DNA of 64,000 nt from Nitrospinales bacterium (GCA_047610985.1 JBLFWU010000003.1:1-64000); one strand, 5' to 3'; counted from the first letter of the stretch, positions 8,729-61,180 are shown. The notes: generated by a model from the sequence alone, not told the origin. Translations and numbers: made by a program.

Positions 8729-8738
8729 GGTTCTCTGA

Positions 8739-9725: not shown

Positions 9726-9732
9726 ATAGCCT

Positions 9733-45358: not shown

Positions 45359-45502
45359 CATATTAATACCCAAACTTTCTTTGTCTCATCATATCTGCAC
45401 CTACCGCCTAAAATCCGGTACAATATTTTTACATATCGTCTTTTTCGTGTATTTTAGCGGAATTAAATTTGCCGATAACTTTAATATAGGGAGCGGGAAT
45501 AA

Positions 45503-46033: not shown

Positions 46034-46165
46034 ATTTCTTATATATGGTAATCATTGCACTGCAAAATTGAAGAATGAATAACACTAATTCTCATCTAAA
46101 GCTTTTTTAACACCCTTTCAGTTTCACAATAAAAAATTGAACAACTAAAAGCATAGACTCCATCA

Positions 46166-48229
46166 TTATTTTTCTTTGTTTTGAGTGATTTGCGAAATTT
46201 TTTCTATTATTTGGCCATTGATCAATGCGGCTAAGTTATAGCTGGGATGATCATCATCACTATATAGAATTTTACTTTCATCATGCGTTACGCAACGTCC
46301 TGCTATAGCACTATCGCAAACCAATTGATGCGGATAAACCCGGTACAAGTTTTGATGTTCAATGCTATCTAGTAATTCAAAAGAACTTTTTGCTCTTTGT
46401 CTATAACGTTCATAACTAGTAGTGATAGGGTTTGACATTAACCCCTGCATACTTCCATTTGACGGTATCTGCGCATATAATTTTGTTGGCACATCCCATC
46501 CAACCTCAGGGATTGGGTATACAAATATTACACTGTGACCGTTATCCAGGATTTCCATCACTGTTTTCGAAAAAGTTTCACTTAAGGTTAAACTTGATAG
46601 AGTGGGTTCAAATTTATAAAATAACTCTTTATCATCAATTAACTCAACACCTCCCTCTCCATTATCAAAAGTTCGACTATTTAAGTACAGTGGGAACCTA
46701 GCACCAATAACAATAATAGAGTTTTTCGTGCTCAGAATCTTTTTTAAACGAAGTCTTTGATATCCTTCTGTGCAAGGACTTTTATCATGTACTCCTGTAC
46801 TGACAGATTTTTTAATTAAGCCAATAGGCCAACATCCTCCAGACGTTATATCTGAGATGTTAAATTCGCCAGACAACCTCTCAAATAAGTTTCTACTTAA
46901 ACTCTCAAGATGGCTATCGCCAATTAAATGCACCCATCGCGAAGAACTGTTGCTATTGGTATATTCACAGAAAGCACTCTGCCTACCAAAGCACGCTTCG
47001 CCATCTTTTTTTAACCCCCACTTCATACCATCCAAGGATTCTATATCTCTGAAAACTTTGGAAACCCTTATGGGGTGCCCATCTGAATTAAGAGTAAAAA
47101 TGTTAAGAGGTACGGTGAAGACCAGGAATAAAGTAAGACAAATGATCAGCATGCGAGAACTGATGAGTTTCTTATTTCTAAATGGTTGCTCAATCACAAA
47201 ATATGAAATGATTGACAATACAAAAGTCAAAGCAATCCAATAAATTTTATCGTAGTTACTGGGAGTAGAACCCCCAATACGAGAAAAAGCAAAAATGGGG
47301 AAATGCCATAAATAGACTGAATAGGAAATTAAGCCAATACCAATAAATGGTTTTGAACTTAATATCTTACCCACAAAATCTTTCTTCGATGAGAAAGCTA
47401 TGATAAACGCAGAGCCGATGATAGGGACTAGGGTTATCAGGCTTGGGTGGGGTGTCTTTGCTTCAAAGAACAGAATTGAATATGCAATAAGATAAAAACC
47501 AACAATAGGAAATATAATGTTAGCTATTCTGTTTTGAACCCTCCCACGCTTCAACTCCAAATACGCCAAAATTGATCCTACTAAAAGCTCCCAAAAACGA
47601 GACATTGGCAAATAAAAATTCAAGCTTACATTTTGCATGCTCATAGCATTAGAGAACAGAAGACTGAGCAAAAACATCGCAGAAAACAAAATCAACACAT
47701 GCTTTCTAAGAAACTTATAGAAAAATACAAGTAGTATTGGGAATACGATATAAAACTGCTCTTCCACACCCAAGCTCCATGTATGGAGAAATGGCTTCAT
47801 CAGAGAGCTCTCAGCACCATATTCTGTAGTGACAAAGTAAAAGAAAAAGTTAGAACTAAAGAGCACTGCAGAAAGAATGCTCTTGCTGTATTCCAAAAAG
47901 TTTGCCGGCAGAAGATATTTCCAGGCAAAAGGGAAGGTAACCAACATAACGGTAAAGAGCATTGGCAATATGCGCCTTGCTCTTCGTTCATAAAATTTCA
48001 AAAAACTGAAAGAACCTGTTTTAAAAAGTTCTTCAAGTATGATTCTTGTTATCAGATAGCCACTGATGACGAAAAAAATATCAACACCGATGTAACCACC
48101 CTCAAACCAATCACGGCCAAATATGACGATTTTAGCGTGGTACAAAATAATAACCAGAACCGCTATCGCTCTAAGTCCATCTATTTCGGGTCTGCGATCT
48201 ATAGGATTAATTTTGGACCGATGCCTCAC
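46166..48229 (-). CDS. Acyltransferase-3 (OafA/YrhL-type) membrane protein fused to a C-terminal SGNH hydrolase domain
   Basis: N-terminus RPEIDGLRAIAVLVIILYHA…GVDIFFVISGYLIT is the AT3 signature. About 10 TM segments. C-terminal domain with GDSH (IGDSHLES). Confidence 0.85.
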   Translation of the reverse strand: MRHRSKINPIDRRPEIDGLRAIAVLVIILYHAKIVIFGRDWFEGGYIGVDIFFVISGYLITRIILEELFKTGSFSFLKFYERRARRILPMLFTVMLVTFPFAWKYLLPANFLEYSKSILSAVLFSSNFFFYFVTTEYGAESSLMKPFLHTWSLGVEEQFYIVFPILLVFFYKFLRKHVLILFSAMFLLSLLFSNAMSMQNVSLNFYLPMSRFWELLVGSILAYLELKRGRVQNRIANIIFPIVGFYLIAYSILFFEAKTPHPSLITLVPIIGSAFIIAFSSKKDFVGKILSSKPFIGIGLISYSVYLWHFPIFAFSRIGGSTPSNYDKIYWIALTFVLSIISYFVIEQPFRNKKLISSRMLIICLTLFLVFTVPLNIFTLNSDGHPIRVSKVFRDIESLDGMKWGLKKDGEACFGRQSAFCEYTNSNSSSRWVHLIGDSHLESLSRNLFERLSGEFNISDITSGGCWPIGLIKKSVSTGVHDKSPCTEGYQRLRLKKILSTKNSIIVIGARFPLYLNSRTFDNGEGGVELIDDKELFYKFEPTLSSLTLSETFSKTVMEILDNGHSVIFVYPIPEVGWDVPTKLYAQIPSNGSMQGLMSNPITTSYERYRQRAKSSFELLDSIEHQNLYRVYPHQLVCDSAIAGRCVTHDESKILYSDDDHPSYNLAALINGQIIEKISQITQNKEK

Positions 48230-48295
48230 TTTAAGCGGGGATAAATGAAGATATTTTTTAACTCAATAGAAACTATATTCTATATAAATAGCGAC

Positions 48296-49768
48296 TTATT
48301 TAACATTAGGTATTTTCATACCAGAAAAATCGTAAAGGATAAAATCCCTATTTTGAGATGAAGTGAAAAACGCATATTTCGAGTTGGCCTGAATTAAATA
48401 GAAATCACCAGGGACTTGAACATTTAAAGCTTTAAATTCAGCTGTACCGGACAACCACATTTTTTTAGGATTATGTTGCGATTGCCTTAGCAACTCTTTC
48501 TTGTTAATGGGGGGCTCCATATCTCGATCTGAATAAAAAAGCATTGCGTGTTTTGGACGCCAAAAATCAAGCTTAAAGTTTCCGATCATTTCATTTTCTG
48601 GGACATTTAGTTTTATTATAGAGGCCAATTGCCGAACCCCATTACTGCTTTCTTTTAAAGTTACTTTAACTTGAAATGGGGTCGAGTTTACGAATAGAGC
48701 GGTCAGGCAGGCGACTCCAGCTAATCCTCCGACAACCCTTTCTTTCCAAGCGGGATCCAGCCAATCATATAATGTTTTTGCAACGATGATAGACAGGGCC
48801 GGAAAAATCATAAAAAGATAACGGATGGTCTGATTATTACTCGTGCTCAAAACCACAAAGACTAATATAGGCCATAGAAAAAGGAATAAGGAGTTTTCAT
48901 CTTTTTCAATGAATCCACGCTTGCCAAATTTATACAATCCTATCAACGCAAATGGTAACCAAGGCCAGTAATACTCAAAAAAATCTTTAAAATACCCTAA
49001 AAAATTACATCGGAAACCGCTATTCCCGCAATCGCTACCAAAAAATAAGGCTCCAAAATGAACTTCAAGAAATAGTTGTTCAAATTCAAGCCAATTGATC
49101 CAATGCCAGGAAAAACCCAAACCTAACGCAAGTATAGTTCCCAAGGCTAAAAACGGATTTACCAAATCCTTCCACTGGCGGTTTAAGAGGAGATATAAAA
49201 ATACAATAGCTAAGGGAAAGATGCCCAGCACACTTTTTGATAAAATTGCTCCAGCGGTTGCGAGTCCGAAAACCAGATACCATGGCTTATGGTTTTTGGC
49301 TTTTAAAAACGCGAATAAAGCAAAAGTAACAAAAAATGTAAGAGGAATATCAACCATTGCCCTTCGGGAATAATCTATAAATATTCCAGGAAAAATTAAA
49401 ATCAAGGATGCTACAAAGGCAATCCAGGAATCTTTATATAAATGGCTCGCTAATCGATACGTCAAAAGAACTATCCCCGCCCCAAACAGAGCAGAGGGGA
49501 AAATAGCCGAAAAGCTTGAGATTCCAAAAATACTATATGCCAGAGCCATACACCAAAGTGGTAGAGGCGGGTTGGCAAAATCGGGTACCCCGGCAAATGT
49601 GATAACCCATAAATCTCTGGATTCATAAACCTCTTTGGCCTTCTGAGCGTAAAAGGCGTCATCATAATTTTTCATTCCCGTATCTAATTGCCGCCCAAGC
49701 AGAATTAAGAGCGTCAGAAAAATAAGGAAATAAATTTGAAAAGTCTTGTTGTTAAATATCGTCTTCAA
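48296..49768 (-). CDS. ArnT/PMT-like (GT39/GT83-family) membrane glycosyltransferase
   Basis: Multi-TM protein with an N-terminal loop (YDDAFYAQKAKE) in the position of the conserved DE/DD motif of undecaprenyl-phosphate-sugar-dependent glycosyltransferases. Confidence 0.8.
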   Translation of the reverse strand: MKTIFNNKTFQIYFLIFLTLLILLGRQLDTGMKNYDDAFYAQKAKEVYESRDLWVITFAGVPDFANPPLPLWCMALAYSIFGISSFSAIFPSALFGAGIVLLTYRLASHLYKDSWIAFVASLILIFPGIFIDYSRRAMVDIPLTFFVTFALFAFLKAKNHKPWYLVFGLATAGAILSKSVLGIFPLAIVFLYLLLNRQWKDLVNPFLALGTILALGLGFSWHWINWLEFEQLFLEVHFGALFFGSDCGNSGFRCNFLGYFKDFFEYYWPWLPFALIGLYKFGKRGFIEKDENSLFLFLWPILVFVVLSTSNNQTIRYLFMIFPALSIIVAKTLYDWLDPAWKERVVGGLAGVACLTALFVNSTPFQVKVTLKESSNGVRQLASIIKLNVPENEMIGNFKLDFWRPKHAMLFYSDRDMEPPINKKELLRQSQHNPKKMWLSGTAEFKALNVQVPGDFYLIQANSKYAFFTSSQNRDFILYDFSGMKIPNVK

Positions 49769-49874
49769 TATTTTGTTGGGTAAAGGTGATGGCTTATAAC
49801 ATTAGTAATAAAAAAAATTCTCTAAGAAGAAGCAGAAGGATGCGATCCATTCTCAGATCGGCCCTTCACAAGTA

Positions 49875-50678
49875 TTATTTAAAAACGCGTTTGAAAAAAT
49901 CGAGCATGGCTGCCCAAGCTTGTTCATCGGCTTTTTTATTGTATTGGAGCGCGGCAATATTGAATTTCTTACTGAACTCATCGGCTTGTGGATTCGTGAA
50001 GCTATGCTTCACCCCTTTCAGGTTCATGTAGGTAAAATCAACATTAGCTTTGAACATATCTTGAGAAAAGGAAGACACCGATTCGGGTTTCAAGAAACCA
50101 TCTTCTGATCCGTTGATAATCAGCACCGCAGACTTCATAGATTTTTTTGTAATAGTAGGTTCAACAGGTAACGCGCTGTGGAACGCGACGACCCCTTTTA
50201 AACCTGCGCCGCCTCTTGCCATTTTAATGGATACCGCACCGCCGAAACAAAAACCTATAGAACCTATACGCGTAGCATCTACGGTTTTATGCTTTTTCAA
50301 AACTTCCATGGCCTTGTTATATCGCGCCTGAGAGTCCGGCCAGTTGCTAAAAGCGGCGTTCATGAACTCACCGGCTTTCTTAGGATGGTTCGCCAGTTTT
50401 CCACTACCATACATGTCCAGAGCTAAAGCCGTATAACCTGCTTCAGCCAGCATTTTAGCTCGATTACGTGCATGGTCGTTATGTCCCCACCATTCATGCA
50501 CCACCAGCACACCGGGGCGTTTGCCTGATTTGGAATCGTCATAAGCCAGATAGCCCGTTAACTTTGTACCGTTGTGGCTGTATTCAATCTCTTCTGTCTT
50601 TACCTCTGCATTTGCCAAAGTAACAAAACTTAATAAAGCAATAACAGCGAATATTTTTTTCATGGAATTAAACTCCAT
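49875..50678 (-). CDS. Dienelactone hydrolase-family protein, secreted
   Basis: Signal peptide. HEWWGHN. Nucleophile elbow GFCFGG. C-terminal His. Confidence 0.85.
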   Translation of the reverse strand: MEFNSMKKIFAVIALLSFVTLANAEVKTEEIEYSHNGTKLTGYLAYDDSKSGKRPGVLVVHEWWGHNDHARNRAKMLAEAGYTALALDMYGSGKLANHPKKAGEFMNAAFSNWPDSQARYNKAMEVLKKHKTVDATRIGSIGFCFGGAVSIKMARGGAGLKGVVAFHSALPVEPTITKKSMKSAVLIINGSEDGFLKPESVSSFSQDMFKANVDFTYMNLKGVKHSFTNPQADEFSKKFNIAALQYNKKADEQAWAAMLDFFKRVFK

Positions 50679-50845: not shown

Positions 50846-51601
50846 CTAGTGGTCTTTCCATTTGGCATTGATGGCGAGGGAGCCCATGCGGATGCCGCCC
50901 ATTCTCAGGCTGGTCAACAGGTCGAGAGATGGAATAAAAAACAGGCCACGGGTTTTGGCGGGTTGTGTTAGGGACTCGCTATGCTCTTCCAGTTTGGATG
51001 AGTTTTTATCGAATGTAAGGATATAATCCCCATACTCACTATCAGCTTTATAGTTATAGCGGTGCTGGGGTAACTCCGTAGGTGTTATATCGTTGGTTAA
51101 GAAATGGTGTGTGCTCAGAAAACTGCTTTGTGCCTGATCGAGGTAATTGGGGTGCTCGATCAGTACTTGCTCTTTCACTTCTGCAATATTGGAATGTTCG
51201 CCGCCCTCGACTTCAACGTCTTCAATCAGTTCGCCGTCTCTTCCAAACAATTCTCCTACCTGCTTGGCTAATTCACGGTTCAGCTTCGGGTGACCCGAAG
51301 AAAAATAAAGCAACAAATCACCTTCAGACTCCGGCACTTCCTCATCCCCGACATCTATTTCATCGAAAGCGCGAAAACCACCTGGGGACGGGATATCCGG
51401 CGTGATGAGCAACCAATTCATAGGACCGAACCCAATGGTCACAAAATGCGGCTCACCATCAGCGACCTCGTAAGCCATTCCTGGAGTCTGAGCACCGATG
51501 CGCGCCACATTCATGGCGATCAGGGGTAGATCTTCAAAAGTATATTTTTGAATCAGTGAATACTGATATGGGGGTTTCAACACCCCTTCCTGACATTGCA
51601 C
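50846..51601 (-). CDS. Hypothetical acidic protein (251 aa)
   Basis: ORF with coding-like composition. No motif recognised. Confidence 0.45.
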   Translation of the reverse strand: MQCQEGVLKPPYQYSLIQKYTFEDLPLIAMNVARIGAQTPGMAYEVADGEPHFVTIGFGPMNWLLITPDIPSPGGFRAFDEIDVGDEEVPESEGDLLLYFSSGHPKLNRELAKQVGELFGRDGELIEDVEVEGGEHSNIAEVKEQVLIEHPNYLDQAQSSFLSTHHFLTNDITPTELPQHRYNYKADSEYGDYILTFDKNSSKLEEHSESLTQPAKTRGLFFIPSLDLLTSLRMGGIRMGSLAINAKWKDH

Positions 51602-51719: not shown

Positions 51720-51759
51720 GGAAAAAACAAAGGGCCTTTACCCCAAGAGGTAAGGCCCT
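51720..51759 (-). terminator. Rho-independent terminator downstream of the ACL-like operon
   Basis: On the minus strand: agggccttacc-tcttgg-ggtaaaggccct (11-bp stem with one bulge) followed by TTTGTTTTTTC. Confidence 0.65.
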
Positions 51760-51825: not shown

Positions 51826-54540
51826 TTAGCCTACATAGAAACATTTGCTTGCTGGGGTTCGGGTATCCATATTCTTACCACGTGAAGTGTGGTCATCGAT
51901 CTCCGCTGCACAACCGATCATTCTGCCGAACAAGAAGGTAGCGAAACTTGCAGATTCGATATCCTCTTCCTTCAGCTTACCGCCGCTGAAATCGGTCCAA
52001 ACAATTTTGAGCAGGATAACGGCGATAACCGCATCGATGTTCACACAATAAACGTTCTTACTGACTTTCGCCTTGAATAAAGCTTGAACGAGGCTGTGGT
52101 AAAACTCAAGAAAAACGTTGTTAATGCCTTTTTCTTTGAACAGGCCACTAACGAAAACTTCGCGCGGATCGTAGTTCACATCTTTGCCTTTGAATATAGG
52201 ATGATTCACGCAAGGCAACTTGGCATAATCAAGATTACCCACTGCTTTTTGTTTTTTCTTATACTCAGAATATTCATTCGCAACTTTAAGAGCCATGGCA
52301 TCGAGGTCGAGACCGTGATTGCCATCAGCAGGATCTTTCAAGCCTTTGCCCTTGAAGTTTTCCATAAGGAATGCTGCCGCTTCATAACCGTTTCCGCCAT
52401 GGGCGAAACCCGTATGCGTGAGGAATCCGATAAAAGCCTTATTCACTTGCACGCGCTGGGGCTGTTCCGGTCCATCAGCACTGACTGCGCCTTTGCAGCC
52501 TTGAGCCGAAATGGTACCCGGTCCGTTGGTGATGATGAGTCCGAGTAGAACCTGAAACTCATAGAGTTCGGATTCAGAAGGCTGTCGGCCCAACAACGTG
52601 ACAAACGCTGTTTTGGTGAAACTGTAGTTCGGAATCAACTCTTCGAGTTTAACCCCGGCAATAGCATCTTCTGTATGCCTTGAAGCTGGCGCAGAAACTC
52701 CAACGATGGTGCTGTAAATACGTGAGTACCAAGGCAAACGGGTGAGCGTGTCTTTAGAAATCTTTTTACCTCGTAAAGCTTCCCACCCAAGAGTGACCCA
52801 TACCGCACCAAATAACGCATCGGTAGAGAGTTTGCCGCCATTGGCTGCTGCAAAATCTTGTACGAACTTTATAAATACAGAGTCACCTGCTTTATTGAGA
52901 CATTCGGCCAGTTTTGCTGCGCATTTATCTTCGCCATCAGCAAGCAGAGCATCTTTATATTTATCTGCTTCTTTCAATTGTGCAGAGTAATCGAATTTTT
53001 CTTTCGGTCCACCCAGTTTGGTGAATTGGAACAACTCTAATAGCGCACTGGAAGCATCCATGGCTTTCTGCACCATTTTCTTTCCGACAATCCCTACTGC
53101 GGAAGATACAACGGTGTTGGGCGAGTTGCCATTTTCTCGAGACGCTTGGGCCGCTGCCATCGTTGCTTGACCATGCTGATTGACATACATATTCAAGACA
53201 ATGTTAGCTATCTTTTCTCCATACTCACAAGTGTATTGCCGCGTGAGCGCGAAAACCAGATTGGCTTCAAAGGTTTTCATCGAAGCATCGAGAATAGATG
53301 TGTTATGAATCTTCGATACCTGAGTTTTCGGGTCCATCATCGAAGCTCCACTGGCATCCTTCAAATTTTCGCGTCGATGTTGTGCGCCCACCATTTTATC
53401 GAGAGCTTCGATCTGTTCGTTGTAAGGAGCAGTCGCTTCGACTACGGGTAAATCCAATTCAGAAGGGAGTGACAAGCCCTGGTTGTTACCGAACCACGGT
53501 TTCAGATCAAGGCTACCTCGTGAATCGAAATCCGGTTTCTTACCATTGAGTTCCATGACCTTGGTCAATGCTTCCGGGATATATGCGATGTTGGTAACCA
53601 GAGCCCCCTTTTTCGAGCATATTGGGTTTTCCGGAGTGTAAATTCCATCGACTCCAAAATAATCCATGAACCATTGTTCCTTCGCGAGAGCATCATCGCC
53701 CGCACCAGACAAAGACCCTGCATGACCGCAGGCTTTGGTCAGTCGTGCTTTCCAACGCCCTACTACACATGCAACGATAGGCTTGTCAGACTTCAGCCCC
53801 TGCTCATAGTATCCACCAGGCTCACTGTACAGAACTGCAGCCTCGGAACGATCGTCGTTATCGAATGCGTAGAGAAACTCTTTTGCCCCGTATTGAATAT
53901 AGACGTCTTTGCCACTGGAAACAGAGGTTGTGGTTCCCCACCCTGCTGTAGAAAGATATACGGCAATAGTTGTGGTGAAGTTACCGGAATTGGAAAAAAG
54001 AGCAATGGAACCTTTAATGAGTGATTCTTCAGGAGCATTGCCCCCTAACGCGCCACCCAACCGGACATGATTCCATGCATCGGCCAGTCCCAAGCAGTTG
54101 CCGCCAAACAGATCAACTCCATTTGCCTGACAAATTGCTCTCATGACTCGAGAATCTTTCACTGAAACTTTTTCAGTGAGAATAATTGCTTTAGTGAGAT
54201 CAGGATTGTCGCGTACAGCTTCGGCGAGTCCATCTTTCACACCCGAAGGGGGAAGATAAATTACAACGGTGTTGAATTTATGTCCCGCTTCCATACCTTC
54301 TTTAATAGAATTGTAAACCGGAATTTTCCCAGATTTCGTCATCAGGCTTTTGCCTGATTTTCCTGGGCCGGTACCGAACACAATATTACCACCGGAATAA
54401 TCATTACTGATCGGGGTAACACCTGAACTCTCTTTACCCAGAATATTCAATACTACGCATCTGTCATCTTTGGTTGCCAATTCAGACAGCGAGTTAATGC
54501 CACAGTAAAAGGGGAAATCCCCTACGCCTTGCTTATGCAT
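51826..54540 (-). CDS. ATP-citrate-lyase-like alpha subunit: CoA-binding/phosphohistidine domain plus a citrate-synthase-like citryl-CoA lyase domain, with a long internal insertion (904 aa)
   Basis: CoA-binding N-terminus. GHAGSLSG phosphohistidine loop. C-terminal citrate-synthase-family motifs (…VNHPIFKGKDVNYDPRE…, …GRMIGCAAEIDDH). About 300 aa longer than the ~610-aa Chlorobium-type AclA I recall. Confidence 0.8.
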   Translation of the reverse strand: MHKQGVGDFPFYCGINSLSELATKDDRCVVLNILGKESSGVTPISNDYSGGNIVFGTGPGKSGKSLMTKSGKIPVYNSIKEGMEAGHKFNTVVIYLPPSGVKDGLAEAVRDNPDLTKAIILTEKVSVKDSRVMRAICQANGVDLFGGNCLGLADAWNHVRLGGALGGNAPEESLIKGSIALFSNSGNFTTTIAVYLSTAGWGTTTSVSSGKDVYIQYGAKEFLYAFDNDDRSEAAVLYSEPGGYYEQGLKSDKPIVACVVGRWKARLTKACGHAGSLSGAGDDALAKEQWFMDYFGVDGIYTPENPICSKKGALVTNIAYIPEALTKVMELNGKKPDFDSRGSLDLKPWFGNNQGLSLPSELDLPVVEATAPYNEQIEALDKMVGAQHRRENLKDASGASMMDPKTQVSKIHNTSILDASMKTFEANLVFALTRQYTCEYGEKIANIVLNMYVNQHGQATMAAAQASRENGNSPNTVVSSAVGIVGKKMVQKAMDASSALLELFQFTKLGGPKEKFDYSAQLKEADKYKDALLADGEDKCAAKLAECLNKAGDSVFIKFVQDFAAANGGKLSTDALFGAVWVTLGWEALRGKKISKDTLTRLPWYSRIYSTIVGVSAPASRHTEDAIAGVKLEELIPNYSFTKTAFVTLLGRQPSESELYEFQVLLGLIITNGPGTISAQGCKGAVSADGPEQPQRVQVNKAFIGFLTHTGFAHGGNGYEAAAFLMENFKGKGLKDPADGNHGLDLDAMALKVANEYSEYKKKQKAVGNLDYAKLPCVNHPIFKGKDVNYDPREVFVSGLFKEKGINNVFLEFYHSLVQALFKAKVSKNVYCVNIDAVIAVILLKIVWTDFSGGKLKEEDIESASFATFLFGRMIGCAAEIDDHTSRGKNMDTRTPASKCFYVG

Positions 54541-54565
54541 TCAAACCTCCAACAGTTACGATAAG

Positions 54566-55834
54566 TTAAATTTTTAATTTGGCTTTAATTTCGTCTTTGC
54601 CACCGTTTTTCATCCACTCGTTGACTGCGAGAGCGTAATTAATAACTTCGGACATAGCACTGTCATGCCCGAAGAAACGGTAGGGAAGTCCCAAAGAATC
54701 CAGAATTTCCTTCAGATAATTCATCCCACGAATTACATTGGGGCCGCCTCGTCCGACAACAACGAAAAGCGGAACCGGACCATGCGTCTGAAAGAACTCA
54801 CGCAGTCCATCACCCATAGCACGGAATGTTTCATAGATATCCGTGTTATTGGCTTTTCCGCCAATGATAAACAGGACATTCGACTGTGGCAGCCAGTATT
54901 TAAAACTGATTTTTGAAATATCATTCATCTTTTCGTAAGGAGGGTTACCGCCAAAATCTGAAGAGATGGTAGCCTCTTCTCCCAACAATTCGGTAACCAT
55001 AGCATTTGCGCCACCACCAAAAGTCGGTGCGGTAATGCTTCCTTTATCATTCATAACGAAAACATCGCTCTGCCCCTGATAGGTGCGGAGTTGATTGATC
55101 TCTTGTTCGAACTCAGAATAGTCAGATGCGAAAAGATGCGTTGGCAAATGTAATCTTTTCCACGCCGGGTCATCCTGATCAAACGCACACTTGAAGTCGC
55201 AGGCAATGGGGGTTAATCGCCCGCCTTTACCTGGTTGCATGCGAATAGGATTGAGCTCCAACATCAACATTCCGTAGTTATTGTACAAATCCCACAGTTT
55301 TGGCAAGTTCTGAACCAAAGGACTGATCACCTGCGGTGGCGCACCCAGATCCATCAACGCATTCGAGACATGAAATGCCTTCAAACCTGTCAACGGATCA
55401 AACGGGACTACTGCCATTTTGCTGGGGTCCAATTCTTCAATATCCACACCACCATGATGGGTGATCGTCATAACAGGAGAACGAAACTCAGTACTTTCTG
55501 AAATAGAAAAATAAACTTCGTAATCCGCCGGCACCCCACCTTCATAAGTGACACCGTCAGACTTTACTTTGTTGAACCCATCCACATGTTCAGCAAAATA
55601 GAGACGTTCCTTTTCTTTTAAGGCGTCTGTAATATTGTCCACTCGGCCCAATAGACCCGACTTACCTTTTTTTCCAACGCCGCCCTTAAATACGGGTTTA
55701 ATAAATATTTGTCCGTGACGTTTGATCATGTCTTTAATTTCATCGACACTGAGTTCCGGTCCACGAACTTCAGAGTGGGTAAATTCCACTAGGTCCAACA
55801 ATTTTCTTCCCCAAAGCATGCCGGTTATCTGCAT
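54566..55834 (-). CDS. ATP-citrate-lyase-like beta subunit (succinyl-CoA-synthetase-beta-like ATP-grasp)
   Basis: ATP-grasp fold with an SCS-beta-like C-terminal CoA-ligase domain (…FGGGANAMVT…, …FIIGGKANNTD…). Sits 26 nt upstream of the alpha-like gene. Confidence 0.8.
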   Translation of the reverse strand: MQITGMLWGRKLLDLVEFTHSEVRGPELSVDEIKDMIKRHGQIFIKPVFKGGVGKKGKSGLLGRVDNITDALKEKERLYFAEHVDGFNKVKSDGVTYEGGVPADYEVYFSISESTEFRSPVMTITHHGGVDIEELDPSKMAVVPFDPLTGLKAFHVSNALMDLGAPPQVISPLVQNLPKLWDLYNNYGMLMLELNPIRMQPGKGGRLTPIACDFKCAFDQDDPAWKRLHLPTHLFASDYSEFEQEINQLRTYQGQSDVFVMNDKGSITAPTFGGGANAMVTELLGEEATISSDFGGNPPYEKMNDISKISFKYWLPQSNVLFIIGGKANNTDIYETFRAMGDGLREFFQTHGPVPLFVVVGRGGPNVIRGMNYLKEILDSLGLPYRFFGHDSAMSEVINYALAVNEWMKNGGKDEIKAKLKI

Positions 55835-56070
55835 TTTGTTTTCCTGTCCTCCAAATTAAAAATTGAAATGGATATGAGGTTCTAGCAATTCAAAAGCTAA
55901 GTAGACCAAACTGCGGTCGAACCCGCTAAATATAATTTTTTACAAGGGTTGAGCGTAAAACGAGGGCTGTATTTTATGATATTTCACCCTTTTGTCAATA
56001 ATATCCTGCGAGATAATAGATAAGAAATAAGAGGAAAGAACAAAGGAAGGAAAAGTCCTTCTAAAACAAC

Positions 56071-56871
56071 CTACTTCAAGCGTTTTTTAAGTTCCTTGAT
56101 GCGGAACTTTTCTTCATCACGAGTGATGAACCCCTGCCCGGCATCGTGCTCCAGCATAAGAATTTCAAACTTTAGCGCTTCTGCAACCGCTTGCCCATAT
56201 TTTTGTCCGGGAACCACATCGAACGTTACCACACGAGTATTAAATTTATCAGGCTGAACCTTTTTCAAAAAATCGTCAATCGTCTCCGGTTGAATTCCGC
56301 CACCTACCGACACCAATATTTTCTTTGACTGAATTTTCTTTACCGCTCGCGCTACACGATTTAAAACAGAACGATCTATTCCTGACTTTTTTAACGAGCT
56401 GGATAAATCGCTACACCCGATGGTTATCTCGTCTAAAAATTTCGTCTCAGGAGCATTCAGGATATCATCCAGTTGTTTTACAGCAGTTACCGTTTCTATA
56501 TTGATGTGTTTATTCAATCGCCCAAACTGCATGGGGGTTGTGAAGTCTCTAACAGCAGCAATAAAATTTTCAAGCCCGTAGGGAGATTCAACCATGGGTG
56601 CGATCAAACCGTCTATATTGAGAGGCACCAGCTGTTTGATATCATTTCTGGCATTGGGTCCGCCAATTTTTACAATAGCCGGCAACAGCGAAGCATCTGC
56701 CCAGAACTTAATCTGGTCAATCGTCATAGCTGCATCTTCTGTAGAAAGCTTTAATCCACAGGCACCAAAATCGTTTTTCAAATGTCTTAAAGAACGGGCT
56801 AATGTTGTCTGAAAAGATTCCGCTTTTTTAACTGGCATTATTTTCAATGAATTTTTTTTCGGCTTCATCAA
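56071..56871 (-). CDS. HpcH/HpaI-aldolase / citrate-lyase-beta (CitE)-like TIM-barrel protein
   Basis: Segments VPLNIDGLIAPMVESPYGLENF and ITIGCSDLSSSL resemble the G-x-G-x-x-P-M-V-E and I-G-x-x-D-L motifs of the HpcH/PEP-utilising TIM-barrel superfamily. 266 aa. Overlaps the upstream gene by 4 nt. Confidence 0.5.
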   Translation of the reverse strand: MMKPKKNSLKIMPVKKAESFQTTLARSLRHLKNDFGACGLKLSTEDAAMTIDQIKFWADASLLPAIVKIGGPNARNDIKQLVPLNIDGLIAPMVESPYGLENFIAAVRDFTTPMQFGRLNKHINIETVTAVKQLDDILNAPETKFLDEITIGCSDLSSSLKKSGIDRSVLNRVARAVKKIQSKKILVSVGGGIQPETIDDFLKKVQPDKFNTRVVTFDVVPGQKYGQAVAEALKFEILMLEHDAGQGFITRDEEKFRIKELKKRLK

Positions 56872-59126
56872 CGTTCGCCTTTATTTCTGAAAATAATGGA
56901 TGGGTCGATCTGATCCACCGAACCACAACCCGTGAGAATCATAGCCTTTTTCAACTCCCTCATCTTTTCCTGAAGGTAAAACGCAACACCCTCTTGCCCA
57001 GCACCAAACGCAGCAATACAAATAGGCCTGCCAATCATCACCGCATCTGCTCCTAACGCCAGCATTTTTAGGATGTCGACACCTTCTCGAATTCCACCAT
57101 CCACTAATATTTTGACTCTGCCAGCAACCGCATTAGCAATTTCTGGAAGCACTTCAGCTGTCCCCGGCATATGATCCATCACCCGCCCCCCGTGATTAGA
57201 AACCACGATGGCATCGGCTCCCGCTTCGATAGCAGATAATGTCGATTCCACATTCATAATGCCTTTTAAAATAAATGGAACTTTCAGGTGCGATTTCAAT
57301 TCCTGTAATTCTTCGATGGTTTTGGGCCCTACCGCCTGCCCTTTCATTGACATAGTTTTGAAAGAAGCCGCATCGATATCCACGCCCACTGCCAGGGCAC
57401 CTGCATCTTCCGCAGCCTTGAAACGCTTGATAATATCGAGATTGAATTCGCGCGGTTTAAAAATAGGAATCCCTAACCCGCCGTGTTTTTTAATCGCTTC
57501 TAACCCGATCAAATATTTTTTAGGGCTTGCGCCGTCGCCCACCATGCCTAATGTCCCACACTGCAGACAACCGTCAAGAATGGCGTTCGCATACTCTTTT
57601 TCATCCATGCCACCTGCAAGATTGGTTTCCATCCCCGTAATAGGAGCCGCCAAAACTGGCATGGCTAATTTATGACCAAATAGTTCTATCGATGTGTCGG
57701 GATTTTTAATTCTATGAATGGTGCGGAGATTAACCTGATAACGCGCCAATGCGGTAAGATTCTCGGTGAAGGAACTGCCTGTGCCAATGCCGCCAATGCC
57801 TGGCACTTTTCCAGCACATTCCAAACCATCGCAAACCGTACAGGCCTTGCAAGCAACGTAGAATTTTTTTCTGGCATTATTTCGAATAATATCCCAGGTC
57901 AAAGCGTTGGAAGCACCAACTTCGATTTGAATCGTTTCTCTTGCCAGGTCGTTTATGCGAATCGCTTCTTCGCGGGTCTTGGCGACGGTGATGACATAGC
58001 CCACTTTGCCCATATTGCTTTTTGGCTCTTCCACCCAGTCGCCGGCCTCTTTCATGAGAATGATTTCCCGAACCCCTTTAATTTTTCTTGCATCTTCCAC
58101 ACCCCGTATAGAAAGAATTTTTCCGGGCAGGGGAATCAAAGAACGTTCTGCCGCAACGAGTGTGGTTTTCGGTTTCAGGTCATCAGGCGATTCACCAAGA
58201 GCAACCTGGATAGCAGCCTTATATAAATTGACTCCAGACGATAAAGGATAGGTATAAGCCGACATCCAACCGCCACTCAGACGTGCGGCTATCTCAACAA
58301 TTTTTGGACCGTCTGAGGTAAATTTGATATCACCCTTAGCGGCACCTGTGTCAATACCCAAGGCACGAATCGCCTGTTTAAAAACTTCAATCGTTTTCTC
58401 GATCTGCTGTTTTGGCAGATTCGATGGCAGAGTATGCCCGACTTCGACAAAATAGGGAGATCGTTCAATAATCCGATCAGCAACACCGGTTATATGTATG
58501 TCCTCGTTAAAGATCAGCGCATCCAGACTTAGTTCTGGTCCTACCATAAATTCTTCAATGACTAGTTTTCCGCTGATAGAAGCCTCTTTGGCTTCGCGGA
58601 ATGCCGGGATCAAATCGTCAGGGCGTTCTATTTTACGCACACCTCGTGCACCCATGTTATCGCAGGGTTTTATAACCAGTGGAAGCTCCATAGAATTTAA
58701 CGCTTCGCGCCCTTCATCCAAAGTCCAAACCGGACGAAACTGTGGAACCGGCACACCTTTTTCCTGCAGAACCTGACGCATCTTGATCTTGTCTGTCGCC
58801 CGCTCCGCTACTTCGAAAGGGATACCTGGAAGGTTCAAAGCATCCGCTACGGCGGCAACGGTTTGCGAGGCATCGGTGCCAACCGTCATCACCCCATCCA
58901 AAGGACAAGACATATGAAACTGTTTTGCGGTGTTAACGGTGAGATTAATATTGCGAGTACTGACTTCTATAGGAAAATCGGCCAGCAGCATGCCTTCCGA
59001 TTCCGGGTTGTAATCTGTCACGACCACTTTTAGCCCCATCGACTTGGCGATTTTAATGGCAGGCACCTGAAAAACCCCGCCGCCGATGATCATTAAATGT
59101 TTAGGACGATTTACAGGCATGTACAA
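56868..59126 (-). CDS. Fusion protein: N-terminal ATP-grasp domain + Cys-rich linker + C-terminal FMN-dependent alpha-hydroxy-acid-dehydrogenase-like TIM barrel
   Basis: ATP-grasp N-domain. Linker CKACTVCDGLECAGK. C-terminal VVSNHGGRVMD and LVDGGIREGVDILKMLALGADAVMIGRP, which match glycolate-oxidase/lactate-oxidase-family FMN-binding motifs. Confidence 0.6.
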   Translation of the reverse strand: MYMPVNRPKHLMIIGGGVFQVPAIKIAKSMGLKVVVTDYNPESEGMLLADFPIEVSTRNINLTVNTAKQFHMSCPLDGVMTVGTDASQTVAAVADALNLPGIPFEVAERATDKIKMRQVLQEKGVPVPQFRPVWTLDEGREALNSMELPLVIKPCDNMGARGVRKIERPDDLIPAFREAKEASISGKLVIEEFMVGPELSLDALIFNEDIHITGVADRIIERSPYFVEVGHTLPSNLPKQQIEKTIEVFKQAIRALGIDTGAAKGDIKFTSDGPKIVEIAARLSGGWMSAYTYPLSSGVNLYKAAIQVALGESPDDLKPKTTLVAAERSLIPLPGKILSIRGVEDARKIKGVREIILMKEAGDWVEEPKSNMGKVGYVITVAKTREEAIRINDLARETIQIEVGASNALTWDIIRNNARKKFYVACKACTVCDGLECAGKVPGIGGIGTGSSFTENLTALARYQVNLRTIHRIKNPDTSIELFGHKLAMPVLAAPITGMETNLAGGMDEKEYANAILDGCLQCGTLGMVGDGASPKKYLIGLEAIKKHGGLGIPIFKPREFNLDIIKRFKAAEDAGALAVGVDIDAASFKTMSMKGQAVGPKTIEELQELKSHLKVPFILKGIMNVESTLSAIEAGADAIVVSNHGGRVMDHMPGTAEVLPEIANAVAGRVKILVDGGIREGVDILKMLALGADAVMIGRPICIAAFGAGQEGVAFYLQEKMRELKKAMILTGCGSVDQIDPSIIFRNKGER

Positions 59127-59653: not shown

Positions 59654-61180
59654 ATGGTCGCATTAGTGCATAGCGGAGCAGTATTGGGCATCGACGGTTA
59701 CCCTGTCGAAGTAGAAGTCAATCTTTCACAAGGACTTCCCGGTATGTCCATCGTGGGCCTACCCGATGCGGCAGTAAAAGAAAGTAGCGACCGGGTCTCA
59801 GCCGCTATTCGCAACACCCAGCTGTCATTACCCGTAAGAAGGATCACCGTCAATCTGGCCCCTGCCGATATACGTAAAGAAGGATCGGCGTTCGATCTTC
59901 CCATCGCATTGGGCATCCTTGCCGCAAGCGGCATGATAGACAATGAAAAGTTAAAAGGCTGGGTTATTCTGGGAGAACTGTCACTCGACGGAAGAGTCAA
60001 ACCCGTTAAAGGAGGGCTTTCCATCACTGCCATGGCTCGTGAAAAAGGTATGAAAGGGGTTTTACTTCCCGCGCAAAACGCCGCCGAAGTTTCAGTGATA
60101 GATGATATCCCTATCTACGCTATAGAAAACCTGCCACAAGCATTGGAGTTTCTTTGCGGGAACCTGGTACTGGAGCCAGTAAAACCCGAAAACCAAAAAA
60201 CAATTTCAAGCCCCTCAGGGTATGAGCTGGACTTCACGGATGTTAAAGGCCAGCACCATGTCAAACGCGCATTAGAGATCGCTTCTTCTGGCGGACACAA
60301 CATTCTATTGATCGGTCCACCAGGAAGTGGCAAGTCCATGCTGGCAAAACGTATTCCGACCATCTTGCCATCGATGACACGAGATGAGTCCATCACCACC
60401 ACTAAAATTCACAGCATTCTTGGTCAATTGAAAAATGGACTTTTAAATCTGCGTCCATTTCGCTCACCGCACCACACCATCTCCGATGCCGGGCTGATCG
60501 GCGGTGGTCGCGTACCCATGCCCGGCGAAGTGTCGATGGCGCATAACGGAGTTTTGTTTCTCGACGAGTTGCCCGAATTTAAACGCAATGTGCTCGAAGT
60601 GTTAAGACAACCCCTTGAAGAAGGCGAAGTATCAATATCACGAGCCGCCGGGTCAGTCACTTACCCGTCTAACCTAATGTTAGTGGCAGCGATGAACCCT
60701 TGTCCCTGTGGTTACCGATTCGATCCGAAACGCGAATGCGGGTGCAGTCCTGCCGTCATCAAAAAATACGTTGGTAAAATATCCGGCCCCTTGCTCGACC
60801 GCATCGACCTGCATATCGAAGTCCCCGCATTGAATTATAAAGACCTGTCTTCAGAGTCCGGTGGCGAACCCTCATCCGCCATTGCTCAGCGAGTCGAACA
60901 GGCACGAAATATTCAATTGCACCGTTTTAAAAATGGGGAAAAGAATTTTAATGCCAACATGAACCCCAAACAACTCAAAACTTTTTGCGATCTCGATGAA
61001 GCTTCGAAAAAAATAATGGCGATGGCAATAGACAAGCTGGGTTTAAGCGCCAGAGCCCACGACCGCATCCTGAAAGTCGCCCGAACCATCGCCGATCTCG
61101 CATCAAGTGAAAACGTAGAATCCGAACACATCGCCGAAGCCATTCAATACCGTTCCCTAGACCGAGAAAGCTGGTTCTAA
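59654..61180 (+). CDS. comM: YifB/ComM-family Mg-chelatase-like AAA+ ATPase
   Basis: N-terminal Lon-like domain. Walker A GPPGSGKSM, Walker B and arginine finger. C-terminal Mg-chelatase ChlI-like helix. 508 aa. Confidence 0.9.
   Translation: MVALVHSGAVLGIDGYPVEVEVNLSQGLPGMSIVGLPDAAVKESSDRVSAAIRNTQLSLPVRRITVNLAPADIRKEGSAFDLPIALGILAASGMIDNEKLKGWVILGELSLDGRVKPVKGGLSITAMAREKGMKGVLLPAQNAAEVSVIDDIPIYAIENLPQALEFLCGNLVLEPVKPENQKTISSPSGYELDFTDVKGQHHVKRALEIASSGGHNILLIGPPGSGKSMLAKRIPTILPSMTRDESITTTKIHSILGQLKNGLLNLRPFRSPHHTISDAGLIGGGRVPMPGEVSMAHNGVLFLDELPEFKRNVLEVLRQPLEEGEVSISRAAGSVTYPSNLMLVAAMNPCPCGYRFDPKRECGCSPAVIKKYVGKISGPLLDRIDLHIEVPALNYKDLSSESGGEPSSAIAQRVEQARNIQLHRFKNGEKNFNANMNPKQLKTFCDLDEASKKIMAMAIDKLGLSARAHDRILKVARTIADLASSENVESEHIAEAIQYRSLDRESWF

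What the first reader, a model, noticed from the sequence alone, without database searches (positions are those of the whole stretch)
51826..59126. Four-gene operon joining an ATP-grasp::FMN-dehydrogenase fusion and an HpcH/CitE-like lyase to ATP-citrate-lyase-like subunits
Four genes on the minus strand are tightly packed: a 4-nt overlap, then 236-nt and 26-nt gaps, ending in a strong terminator.

- The first gene (752 aa) fuses an ATP-grasp ligase domain, through a Cys-rich linker, to an FMN-dependent alpha-hydroxy-acid-oxidase-type TIM barrel that carries SNHGGR and DGGIRxGxDxxKxLALGA motifs. I do not recognise this architecture as a known enzyme.
- It is followed by a TIM-barrel protein of the HpcH/CitE lyase type, then ACL beta-like and ACL alpha-like genes.

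Co-transcription of a C-C lyase, an ATP-grasp/CoA-ligase pair and a flavin oxidoreductase domain suggests a modified citrate/acyl-CoA cleaving module. It could be a variant step of a reductive TCA-type pathway, or a different 2-hydroxy-acid-CoA pathway that uses ACL paralogues.
Basis: partly seen in the sequence, partly recalled or inferred. Interest (0 to 1): 0.72.

Follow-up and report, generated by a model that had tools for sequence, protein, structure and literature searches.

The report
Nitrospina citrate lyase beside orphan enzymes
The four genes are real, but they are most likely two neighbouring units: the already-reported unusual ATP-citrate lyase that marine nitrite oxidisers (Nitrospinota) use to fix CO2, and next to it a conserved, uncharacterised pair (an ATP-grasp ligase fused to a flavin oxidase, plus an aldolase/lyase-like barrel) that also occurs without the lyase.

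Summary
All four minus-strand genes, the domain fusion and the terminator are confirmed. The window comes from a Nitrospinota bacterium.

**aclB/aclA (422 and 904 aa).** These are the divergent ATP-citrate lyase already reported for Nitrospina gracilis. They have the same lengths, and the best hits of the N. gracilis genes were the Magnetococcus ORFs later called "type II ACL". The phospho-His motif and a citrate-synthase-like His/His/Asp set are present.

**Not one operon.** A TTGACA-N16-TAAAAT promoter lies in the 236-nt gap and is conserved upstream of aclB in related loci. Unrelated genes are inserted at that spot in some relatives. ACL relatives in other MAGs sit beside isocitrate dehydrogenase, without the fusion.

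**The fusion.** It is a family found in at least 367 species genomes. In 80 of 80 Spirochaetota loci it has no ACL-like or HpcH-like gene within 10 kb.

**The HpcH-like gene.** This is the fusion's true partner: adjacent in 57 of 61 metagenome loci, sometimes in reversed order, and sometimes with no ACL nearby. Three distant variants sit with PseG-like, cytidylyltransferase or NeuB genes, which hints at a sugar-acid pathway.

The pair's function is unknown. Interest is moderate.

The parts
56868..59126 (-). Fusion protein, 752 aa from the TTG start (probably 750 aa from ATG 59120). It joins an L-amino-acid-ligase-type ATP-grasp domain to a Cys4-bearing FMN-dependent alpha-hydroxy-acid-oxidase-type TIM barrel.
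   Evidence: ORF; Pfam and NCBIfam; PDB sequence matches to 3vot (LAL) at 4e-34 and to Hmo/GOX/LOX at 1e-31 to 1e-38. The AF2 model has pLDDT 89. By Foldseek the N-half matches 3vot (TMt 0.87) and the C-half matches mandelate/glycolate oxidase (TMt about 0.8).
57912..59126 (-). ATP-grasp (LAL-type) half, roughly residues 1-405, including the LAL_C2 subdomain.
   Evidence: ATP-grasp_3/4 at residues 110-289, LAL_C2 at 331-403. Invariant K153, E191, E198, K264, D266, E278, R282 and SGG284-286 across 24 fusions.
57816..57851 (-). CxxCxxCxGxxC motif (C426, C429, C432, C437), a probable metal or Fe-S site at the N-terminus of the FMN_dh module.
   Evidence: Invariant in the fusions and in the stand-alone FMN_dh relatives. 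This is the low-pLDDT stretch of the model.
56883..57809 (-). FMN_dh-type TIM barrel, roughly residues 440-748. K621, the SNHGGR motif (H645, R648), DGGIR and GRP are kept. The N-terminal half of the barrel is diverged.
56071..56871 (-). HpcH/CitE-superfamily TIM-barrel protein (265-266 aa) and the conserved partner of the fusion. The putative Mg ligands are E126 and D155. K68 may replace the family's catalytic Arg, but this is inferred from strand order only.
56046..56061 (-). Weak hairpin with a T-rich tail just after the HpcH-like stop codon; a possible leaky terminator.
   Evidence: sequence. Consensus match only.
55971..55998 (-). Sigma-70-like promoter TTGACA-N16-TAAAAT (11 of 12 matches) for aclBA, 136 nt upstream of the aclB ATG.
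   Evidence: It is the best promoter-like site in the region and the only exact occurrence in the 64-kb window. An identical element lies upstream of aclB in 5 of 5 Nitrospinota genome loci. Among 35 distinct loci (32 metagenome loci plus three of those five genome loci), TTGACA-N15-18-TAnnnT is present in all 35 and the exact form in 14.
54566..55834 (-). aclB: small (beta) subunit of the Nitrospina/Magnetococcus-type ("type II") ATP-citrate lyase, with ATP-grasp and citrate-binding domains.
   Evidence: The best PDB match is the Hydrogenobacter citryl-CoA synthetase large subunit 6hxq_B (8e-29), then ACL subunits. It has the same length as N. gracilis NITGRv1_580013.
51826..54540 (-). aclA: large (alpha) subunit. 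It has a succinyl-/citryl-CoA-synthetase-alpha-like N-terminus with the GHAG phospho-His motif (H273), about 300 residues with no Pfam hit and no PDB sequence match, and a citryl-CoA-lyase/citrate-synthase-like C-terminus (H714, H780, D836).
   Evidence: It has the same length as N. gracilis NITGRv1_580014, whose best hit was Magnetococcus MC-1 A0LDT0 at 62%.
51722..51759 (-). Intrinsic terminator after aclA (12-bp stem plus U-run).

Best explanation
The region holds two adjacent but separable units in a Nitrospinota genome.

**Unit 2: aclB-aclA.** This is the phylum's ATP-citrate lyase of the reductive TCA cycle, of the divergent Nitrospina/Magnetococcus ("type II") kind.
- AclB (ATP-grasp plus citrate-binding) and the N-terminus of AclA (CoA-binding, phospho-His H273) make citryl-CoA from citrate, ATP and CoA.
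- The C-terminal citrate-synthase-like domain of AclA (H714, H780, D836) cleaves citryl-CoA to acetyl-CoA and oxaloacetate.
- The unit is transcribed from its own conserved TTGACA-N16-TAAAAT promoter in the 236-nt gap and ends at a strong terminator.

**Unit 1: fusion plus HpcH-like gene.** The two genes are translationally coupled and form an independent, conserved module of unknown physiological role. The chemistry inferred from the folds is:
- the LAL-type ATP-grasp domain activates a carboxylate as an acyl-phosphate and joins it to an amine (or hydroxyl);
- the FMN barrel oxidises a 2-hydroxy (or 2-amino) acid group to the 2-oxo level, possibly passing electrons through the Cys4 site;
- the HpcH-like barrel makes or breaks a C-C bond next to a Mg-bound 2-oxo-acid (pyruvate or oxaloacetate type).

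**Status of each step.** Shown: gene structure, domain identity, conservation, promoter conservation and the separability of the two units. Inferred: enzymatic roles, substrates and actual transcript boundaries.
For: **Organism.** Hits at 75-97% identity are named Nitrospinaceae, Ca. Nitrohelix and Ca. Nitronauta.

**ACL identity.**
- N. gracilis has only two CDS with low similarity to ACL, and no CCS/CCL, so they were taken to be its functional ACL (PMC3578206).
- Its Table S1 gives 422-aa and 904-aa subunits, the same lengths as here. Their best hits were Magnetococcus MC-1 A0LDT1 (73%) and A0LDT0 (62%).
- MC-1 carries the postulated type II ACL (PMC6783814; PMC3522073).

**ACL catalytic motifs.** GHAG aligns to CCS/SCS alpha. 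AHGGN aligns to the AHGG of citryl-CoA lyase 6hxp. NHPIFKG..DPR and NIDA align to citrate synthase 2p2w. All are invariant in 15 homologues.

**Own promoter.** The exact pattern occurs 21 times in 4.4 Mb scanned, and at least 14 of those lie upstream of aclB.

**Insertions between the HpcH-like gene and aclB.** A B12-radical-SAM gene in Nitrohelix, a 1878-aa protein and ORFs of about 1000 aa.

**Separability.**
- IDH-aclB-aclA occurs without the pair in two MAGs.
- 80 of 80 Spirochaetota fusion loci have no HpcH-like, AclA-like or AclB-like ORF within 10 kb (AclA and HpcH by phmmer and HMM, AclB by phmmer).
- 13 metagenome loci with at least 2 kb downstream lack aclB. These include L143/L144, which keep the Nitrospinota-type flanks.

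**Pairing.** The fusion is adjacent to the HpcH-like gene in 57 of 61 loci. The pairing survives an order swap in L153/L154.

**Synteny.** In Nitrospinota it also covers unrelated genes (comM, hslUV, xerC, AMMECR1, polyprenyl synthase), so adjacency alone is weak evidence of a shared function.
Against: - Within Nitrospinota, aclB follows the pair within 180-1373 nt in 39 of 52 loci. The block has survived divergence down to about 56% identity of the HpcH-like protein. That is compatible with a functional link, or with read-through transcription past the weak hairpin.
- There are no transcript data. Promoter and terminator calls are consensus matches backed by conservation, not measurements.
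- No type II ACL has been purified, as far as the papers I could read say, so its activity is itself inferred.
- The HpcH/CitE superfamily includes citryl-CoA and malyl-CoA lyases, so a role near ACL is chemically conceivable.
Confidence: 0.65

Rival explanations
1. One reading: all four genes form one functional module. The HpcH/CitE-like protein would be the citryl-CoA (or malyl-/citramalyl-CoA) lyase working with the ACL-like ligase subunits. The fusion would process a 2-hydroxy-acid intermediate, giving a variant step of the rTCA cycle or a 2-hydroxyacyl-CoA pathway.
For: - The four-gene order is kept in 5 of 5 Nitrospinota genomes and in 39 of 52 metagenome loci.
Against: - AclA keeps its own CS/CCL-type catalytic His/His/Asp.
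- Close ACL relatives (66-68% identity) work in a context without the pair.
- The pair and the fusion occur without ACL.
- aclB has a conserved promoter of its own, and unrelated genes are inserted in the gap.
- The HpcH-like protein appears to have Lys where the family's catalytic Arg is expected by strand order, and no CoA-binding feature could be shown.
Confidence: 0.1
2. The fusion+HpcH pair belongs to a sugar-acid (ulosonic or nonulosonic-acid-like) or other envelope-glycan pathway. The HpcH-like class-II aldolase would condense pyruvate with a sugar aldehyde, taking the place of the PEP-dependent NeuB. The ATP-grasp domain would N-acylate or amidate the product, and the FMN domain would oxidise a 2-hydroxyacyl substituent or supply the 2-oxo acid.
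For: - L087: cytidylyltransferase, PseG-like, a stand-alone ATP-grasp (52% identical to the N-half of the fusion), a NeuB/PseI-like synthase, then a GFO oxidoreductase.
- L147/L148: PseG-like (TIGR03590 1.5e-36, below its cut-off), fusion, HpcH-like.
- L154: a cytidylyltransferase::PseG-like fusion, HpcH-like, fusion.
- The PseG-like and cytidylyltransferase proteins of these loci are homologous to one another.
- Glycosyltransferase genes lie within a few kb in several Nitrospinota loci and in this window.
Against: - Support comes from only three or four outlying lineages.
- No PseG-like or NeuB gene, and no cytidylyltransferase of the L087/L154 kind, lies within 10 kb in the main Nitrospinota group. 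The 80 Spirochaetota loci have only KdsB-type cytidylyltransferases, in two loci, and the fusion there has no conserved neighbour at all.
- The PseG and NeuB scores are below the curated cut-offs.
Confidence: 0.2
3. The pair assimilates or detoxifies a small 2-hydroxy acid such as glycolate or lactate. The FMN domain would oxidise it to glyoxylate or pyruvate, and the HpcH-like protein would act like malyl-CoA lyase or malate synthase, feeding C4 acids into the TCA/rTCA pool beside ACL.
For: - Public annotations call the fusion glycolate oxidase or L-lactate dehydrogenase.
- The catalytic Lys and the His/Arg of SNHGGR are kept.
Against: - The N-terminal half of the barrel is strongly diverged. 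In canonical oxidases this half carries the substrate-carboxylate-binding Tyr and Arg (from my own knowledge of glycolate oxidase). It is not aligned by HMMER.
- This idea gives no role to the ATP-grasp ligase half or to the Cys4 motif.
- The generic annotations are automatic.
Confidence: 0.05

Closest known systems
"Type II" ATP-citrate lyase postulated for Magnetococcus marinus MC-1 (Mmc1_3638/3639) and tubeworm endosymbionts, and the divergent ACL annotated in Nitrospina gracilis (NITGRv1_580013/580014)
   Same: - Two adjacent genes, beta then alpha, of 422 and 904 aa, identical to the N. gracilis lengths. The N. gracilis proteins were 73% and 62% identical to the MC-1 ORFs.
- AclA here is 71-72% identical to sequences named Nitrospina.
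- Same domain content and the same presumed role in the rTCA cycle.
   Different: - Nothing essential differs; this is another member.
- I could not align directly to the Magnetococcus or Endoriftia sequences. That A0LDT0/A0LDT1 are Mmc1_3638/3639 is an inference.
- The enzyme class remains biochemically uncharacterised in the papers I could read.
Citryl-CoA synthetase plus citryl-CoA lyase of Hydrogenobacter thermophilus (PDB 6hxq, 6hxp), and canonical ACL (Chlorobium 6hxj, human ACLY)
   Same: - Both subunits score best against CCS (6hxq_A at 1e-26 to 1e-32; 6hxq_B at 8e-29).
- The C-terminus of AclA aligns to CCL and citrate synthase around the catalytic His/His/Asp.
- The ligase and lyase are joined in one alpha chain, as in canonical ACL.
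   Different: - AclA is about 300 residues longer than the Chlorobium AclA chain (904 against 617 aa). Residues about 300-610 have no Pfam hit and no PDB sequence match.
- Similarity to canonical ACL subunits is far lower (1e-11).
- The closer similarity to CCS suggests a separate CCS+CCL fusion (inference).
L-amino acid ligases of the ATP-grasp superfamily (B. licheniformis BL00235 3vot, RizA 4wd3, BacD 3vmm)
   Same: - The N-half matches 3vot at 4e-34 by sequence and TMt 0.87 by fold, and includes the LAL_C2 subdomain.
- The ATP-grasp catalytic residues are invariant.
   Different: - Identity is only 18-24%, and the substrates are unknown.
- It is covalently fused to a flavin barrel, which no characterised LAL has.
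FMN-dependent alpha-hydroxy-acid oxidases/dehydrogenases (4-hydroxymandelate oxidase, glycolate oxidase, L-lactate oxidase, flavocytochrome b2)
   Same: Pfam FMN_dh at 1e-69. The C-terminal 150 residues align with the Lys, SNHGGR, DGGIR and GRP motifs kept. Fold TMt is about 0.8.
   Different: - It carries an N-terminal Cys4 motif that none of the solved oxidases' alignments cover.
- The first half of the barrel is diverged, for example FKPR and DIDA where canonical enzymes have other motifs.
- It scores far below every NCBIfam equivalog cut-off.
HpcH/HpaI class-II pyruvate aldolases and CitE/CLYBL/malyl-CoA lyases
   Same: - The IE(T) and G..DL motifs align to the Mg-binding Glu/Asp of HpaI and YfaU.
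   Different: - Identity is 14-19%, and only about 186 of 266 residues superpose.
- By strand order, invariant K68 sits where the catalytic Arg is expected, and the His of HpaI is absent. This is my inference, not a structural alignment of active sites.
- The named relatives in the listed best hits are all Nitrospinota. More distant relatives (35-52% identity) occur on metagenome contigs of unknown taxonomy.

Membership tests
Nitrospina/Magnetococcus-type ("type II") ATP-citrate lyase | Two adjacent genes: a beta subunit of about 420 aa (ATP-grasp plus citrate-binding) followed by an alpha subunit of about 900 aa. | tested here: met
   422 and 904 aa with a 25-nt gap; domains; identical lengths in N. 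gracilis, and 424/916 aa in MC-1.
Nitrospina/Magnetococcus-type ("type II") ATP-citrate lyase | High sequence identity to the reference ORFs (N. gracilis NITGRv1_580013/14; Magnetococcus A0LDT1/A0LDT0). | tested here: inconclusive
   AclA is 71-72% identical to proteins named Nitrospina / N. watsonii (P0175, P0197). The reference sequences themselves could not be fetched. The link to MC-1 rests on Table S1 of PMC3578206.
ATP-citrate lyase (any type) | Phospho-histidine loop (GHAG) in the CoA-ligase alpha module. | tested here: met
   ACGHAGSL (H273) aligns to the GHAG of CCS and SCS alpha and is invariant in 15 homologues.
ATP-citrate lyase (any type) | A citrate-synthase-homology (citryl-CoA lyase) domain with the catalytic His, His and Asp. 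| tested here: met
   H714 aligns to the AHGG of CCL 6hxp. H780 (NHPIFKG..DPR) and D836 (NIDA) align to citrate synthase 2p2w. All are invariant. The domain-level E-values are weak (1e-3; NCBIfam 4e-12, below the cut-off).
ATP-citrate lyase (any type) | ATP- and CoA-dependent cleavage of citrate to acetyl-CoA and oxaloacetate. | not testable with these tools
   This needs an enzyme assay. PMC6783814 states that citrate cleavage is detected in MC-1, but this was not shown for the purified proteins.
L-amino acid ligase (ATP-grasp) | ATP-grasp fold with the LAL-specific C-terminal subdomain. | tested here: met
   PF18603 LAL_C2 at 3e-19, above its cut-off; Foldseek TMt 0.87 to 3vot.
L-amino acid ligase (ATP-grasp) | Ligation of two L-amino acids into a dipeptide. 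| not testable with these tools
   There is no assay. All NCBIfam equivalogs (BacD, DdaF and others) score far below their cut-offs.
FMN-dependent alpha-hydroxy-acid oxidase/dehydrogenase | Pfam FMN_dh barrel with the catalytic His/Arg (SNHGxR), the Lys and the FMN-phosphate motifs. | tested here: met
   FMN_dh at 235 bits (cut-off 24.9). K621, H645, R648, DGGIR and GRP are invariant.
FMN-dependent alpha-hydroxy-acid oxidase/dehydrogenase | Substrate-carboxylate-binding Tyr and Arg in the first half of the barrel (Tyr24/Tyr129/Arg164 of spinach glycolate oxidase, recalled from memory). | tested here: inconclusive
   HMMER aligns only short stretches of the first half. The family consensus there reads FKPR and DIDA. 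No residue-level superposition was possible.
HpcH/HpaI aldolase / CitE lyase superfamily | TIM barrel with the Glu and Asp that bind the divalent metal. | tested here: met
   [not shown]
HpcH/HpaI aldolase / CitE lyase superfamily | A catalytic Arg on the third strand (Arg70 of HpaI; the equivalent Arg of CitE and malyl-CoA lyase). | tested here: inconclusive
   By strand order in the model, the invariant VKIGG strand (K68) occupies this place, and R75 follows in the loop. There is no reliable residue alignment.

The most novel reading that the evidence does not exclude
The fusion+HpcH pair would be a Nitrospinota-specific accessory to autotrophy. It would be kept next to the type II ACL because it processes a 2-oxo or 2-hydroxy-acid by-product or intermediate of the O2-exposed rTCA cycle. 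Examples include an ATP-driven, flavin/Fe-S-dependent salvage or anaplerotic shunt ending in C-C lyase chemistry, or an electron-transfer role of the Cys4-FMN module linked to the unsolved problem of ferredoxin supply. In that case the four genes would be a real functional neighbourhood, although they are transcribed from two promoters.
Probability: 0.1. Interest if true: 0.7.

Novelty: new variant of a known kind. Interest (0 to 1): 0.38.

Why it matters
Nitrospinota are the main nitrite oxidisers of the ocean and fix much of the dark ocean's carbon through the rTCA cycle.

**ACL.** Their ACL is of a kind that, in the papers I could read, is known only from sequence. This window adds a clean example with a conserved promoter and intact catalytic motifs, which helps anyone who wants to express the enzyme.

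**The unknown pair.** The truly unknown part is the ATP-grasp::Cys4-FMN oxidase fusion with its HpcH-like partner.
- It is very well conserved in the phylum: 75-97% identity for the fusion.
- The fusion is also present in hundreds of Spirochaetota species.
- It carries only generic automatic names and has no characterised relative.

Working out its reaction would add a new enzyme type, a ligase joined to a flavin oxidase, and would remove a misleading "glycolate oxidase / lactate dehydrogenase" annotation from NOB genomes.

**What it does not change.** As far as the evidence goes, it does not alter the picture of how these bacteria cleave citrate.

Tried and rejected
- **Conserved neighbours of the fusion in 80 Spirochaetota loci.** No gene family occurs in more than 15 of 80 loci, so context gives no functional hint there.
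- **Contexts of stand-alone FMN_dh relatives** (L088, and L089 in Romboutsia). These are housekeeping surroundings and uninformative.
- **Rfam scan of the whole window.** No match, so no known riboswitch or leader lies in the long aclB 5' region.
- **PADLOC scan of the fusion, the HpcH-like protein and the neighbours.** Only weak AAA-type hits to ComM; this is not a defence system.
- **Literature searches** for the fusion (ATP-grasp with FMN-dependent dehydrogenase or hydroxy-acid oxidase; Nitrospinota with ATP-grasp). Nothing relevant came up.
- **Foldseek of the whole fusion model.** It matched pyruvate carboxylases (ATP-grasp plus TIM barrel), but at rmsd 22-25 A. This is a coincidence of domain types, not a shared architecture.
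- **The AFDB library** was not available.
- **The idea that the CitE-like protein supplies a missing lyase activity to ACL.** Rejected, because AclA keeps the CS/CCL catalytic residues and close ACL relatives lack the partner.

Full report
**Observation.** One search shows four minus-strand ORFs at exactly the stated coordinates: 56868-59126 (752 aa), 56071-56871 (266 aa), 54566-55834 (422 aa) and 51826-54540 (904 aa). The spacings are a 4-nt overlap, a 236-nt gap and a 25-nt gap. Homologues of the first two proteins are 750 and 265 aa. The real starts are therefore probably ATG 59120 and ATG 56868, which gives a TGATG stop/start overlap typical of translational coupling. A 12-bp G+C-rich hairpin followed by a U-run closes the block at 51722-51759.

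Pfam and NCBIfam confirm the domains:
- Fusion: ATP-grasp_3/4 plus LAL_C2 plus FMN_dh (1e-69).
- Gene 2: a weak but above-threshold HpcH_HpaI match.
- Gene 3: ATP-grasp_2 plus Citrate_bind.
- Gene 4: CoA_binding plus Succ_CoA_lig, with a weak citryl-CoA-lyase-like C-terminus.

**Organism and ACL genes.** The closest relatives of all four proteins are from Nitrospinota (Nitrospinaceae, Ca. Nitrohelix, Ca. Nitronauta, Nitrospina). Lucker et al. 2013 (PMC3578206) reported the following for N. gracilis:
- It has only two CDS with very low similarity to ACL subunits.
- It has no citryl-CoA synthetase/lyase.
- The authors therefore assumed that these CDS encode the functional ACL of its rTCA cycle.

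Their Table S1 gives 422 aa and 904 aa, the lengths found here. The best hits were Magnetococcus MC-1 A0LDT1 (73%) and A0LDT0 (62%). MC-1 and the tubeworm symbionts are where a "type II ACL" was postulated (PMC6783814, PMC3522073). The two ACL-like genes are thus a further member of an already described, though biochemically untested, enzyme class.

Both subunits score best against the Hydrogenobacter citryl-CoA synthetase subunits (6hxq_A and 6hxq_B), ahead of canonical ACL. AclA keeps the GHAG phospho-histidine loop (H273). In its C-terminal domain it keeps the residues that align with the His, His and Asp motifs of citryl-CoA lyase and citrate synthase (H714, H780, D836). All are invariant in 15 homologues. 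About 300 residues in the middle of AclA have no Pfam hit and no PDB sequence match.

**One operon or two units?** Four lines of evidence point to two units.

1. The best sigma-70-like site in the region, TTGACA-N16-TAAAAT, lies in the 236-nt gap, 136 nt before aclB.
   - It is the only exact occurrence in the 64-kb window.
   - An identical element precedes aclB in all five Nitrospinota genome loci examined.
   - Among 35 distinct loci (32 metagenome loci plus three of those five genome loci), every one has TTGACA-N15-18-TAnnnT upstream of aclB, and 14 have the exact form.
2. The gap is a place where unrelated genes are inserted: a B12-radical-SAM gene in Nitrohelix, a 1878-aa protein in L085, and ORFs of about 1000 aa in L091 and L093.
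3. AclA relatives at 66-68% identity, in MAGs labelled Deltaproteobacteria (L002) or without a taxon name (L003), sit in IDH-aclB-aclA with no fusion or HpcH-like gene within 10 kb.
4. L143/L144 keep the Nitrospinota-type flanks (hslU and xerC upstream; GT2 and a HEAT-repeat gene downstream) and the fusion+HpcH pair, but have no aclBA within 9 kb.

Against this, aclB does follow the pair within 180-1373 nt in 39 of 52 loci with enough downstream sequence. However, synteny in this phylum also extends to plainly unrelated genes (comM, hslUV, xerC, AMMECR1, polyprenyl synthase).

**The fusion.**
- An exhaustive HMMER search of 50%-identity cluster representatives found about 25 clusters of full-length fusions at 36-55% identity. 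It also found many stand-alone ATP-grasp and stand-alone FMN_dh relatives.
- A scan of one genome per species found relatives in 367 stretches. The best 80 for a spirochaete query are all Spirochaetota.
- None of these 80 loci has an HpcH-like, AclA-like or AclB-like ORF within 10 kb (AclA and HpcH by phmmer and profile HMM, AclB by phmmer). No gene family is a conserved neighbour.
- The AF2 model is confident within each domain (pLDDT 89) but not between domains (pTM 0.60).
- The N-half superposes on the B. licheniformis L-amino-acid ligase (TMt 0.87). The C-half superposes on mandelate and glycolate oxidases (TMt about 0.8). No solved structure has both.
- The ATP-grasp catalytic residues and the Lys/His/Arg and FMN motifs of the oxidase are invariant. 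The first half of the barrel is diverged.
It is a feature of that subfamily and probably a metal or Fe-S site.
- I found no paper on this architecture.

Its firm partner is the fusion. The two are adjacent in 57 of 61 metagenome loci with upstream sequence. This includes loci at 36-50% identity and two loci with the order reversed.

**A lead on function.** Three outlying lineages place these genes with sugar-acid pathway genes.
- L087 carries a cytidylyltransferase, a PseG-like protein, a stand-alone ATP-grasp (52% identical to the fusion's N-half), a NeuB/PseI-like synthase and a GFO oxidoreductase.
- L147/L148 carry a PseG-like protein, the fusion and the HpcH-like protein.
- L154 carries a cytidylyltransferase::PseG-like fusion, the HpcH-like protein and the fusion.

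In these arrangements the HpcH-like barrel stands where NeuB stands in L087. This suggests a pyruvate-dependent aldol step in an ulosonic-acid-like pathway. The support is thin. The scores are below the curated cut-offs. No such neighbours appear in the main Nitrospinota group, and the Spirochaetota loci show only KdsB-type cytidylyltransferases in two loci.

**Verdict.** The interpretation as one citrate or acyl-CoA-cleaving operon is not supported. The ACL part is already known. The fusion+HpcH pair is a real, conserved and uncharacterised two-gene module, whose adjacency to aclBA in Nitrospinota is best read as inherited gene order. A functional tie to ACL cannot be excluded; I put it at about 0.1. 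Overall interest is moderate.

Noticed in passing
window 55835-55970 (-); also L001, L084-L086 and the metagenome loci: If the conserved promoter is real, aclB has a long untranslated leader (84-419 nt in relatives, 136 nt here). Rfam finds no known element in it, and the sequence is poorly conserved between genera.
   Followed up: partly
window 52710-53640 (-), roughly AclA residues 300-610: About 300 residues between the CoA-ligase module and the citryl-CoA-lyase-like domain have no Pfam hit and no PDB sequence match, yet contain many invariant positions. This stretch accounts for most of the extra length over the Chlorobium AclA chain (904 against 617 aa).
   Followed up: partly
window 50846-51601 (-): A 251-aa ORF just after the aclA terminator has no Pfam hit. 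It is 32% identical (9e-35) to the gene that follows aclA in Ca. Nitrohelix, which carries a precomputed Dyp_perox_N hit. It may be a fifth syntenic gene in some lineages.
   Followed up: partly
L087 6135-11559; L147 4098-8346; L154 7039-11989: Distant relatives of the ATP-grasp half or of the fusion sit next to PseG-like and cytidylyltransferase genes. The adjoining gene is NeuB in one locus and HpcH-like in the others, which suggests a module of sugar-acid biosynthesis.
   Followed up: partly
L143 and L144 (704-kb and 444-kb metagenome contigs), 6695-9741: This Nitrospinota-like lineage keeps the flanking synteny (hslU, xerC ... GT2, HEAT) and the fusion+HpcH pair but has no aclBA at this site. 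It is a natural "deletion" that could show whether the pair is tied to autotrophy.
   Followed up: partly
window 59654-61180 (+); L001, L084, L085; L089 10998-12536: A ComM/YifB-type Mg-chelatase-like ATPase lies divergently upstream of the fusion here and near it in three other Nitrospinota loci. A comM gene also lies 2 kb from the stand-alone Cys4-FMN_dh gene in Romboutsia ilealis. This is probably coincidence.
   Followed up: no
window 42703-50678: Downstream of the block lies a run of envelope and glycan genes: polyprenyl synthetase, a GT9 heptosyltransferase-like gene, an AT3+SGNH acyltransferase and a PMT_2/ArnT-like glycosyltransferase. A dienelactone hydrolase follows.
   Followed up: no
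L085 13452-19088; L091 3681-6659; L093 6001-9189: Very large ORFs (1878 aa with CLIPPER-type repeats; about 1000 aa, lipoprotein-like) are inserted between the HpcH-like gene and aclB in some Nitrospinota. This marks the gap as a recurrent insertion site.
   Followed up: no
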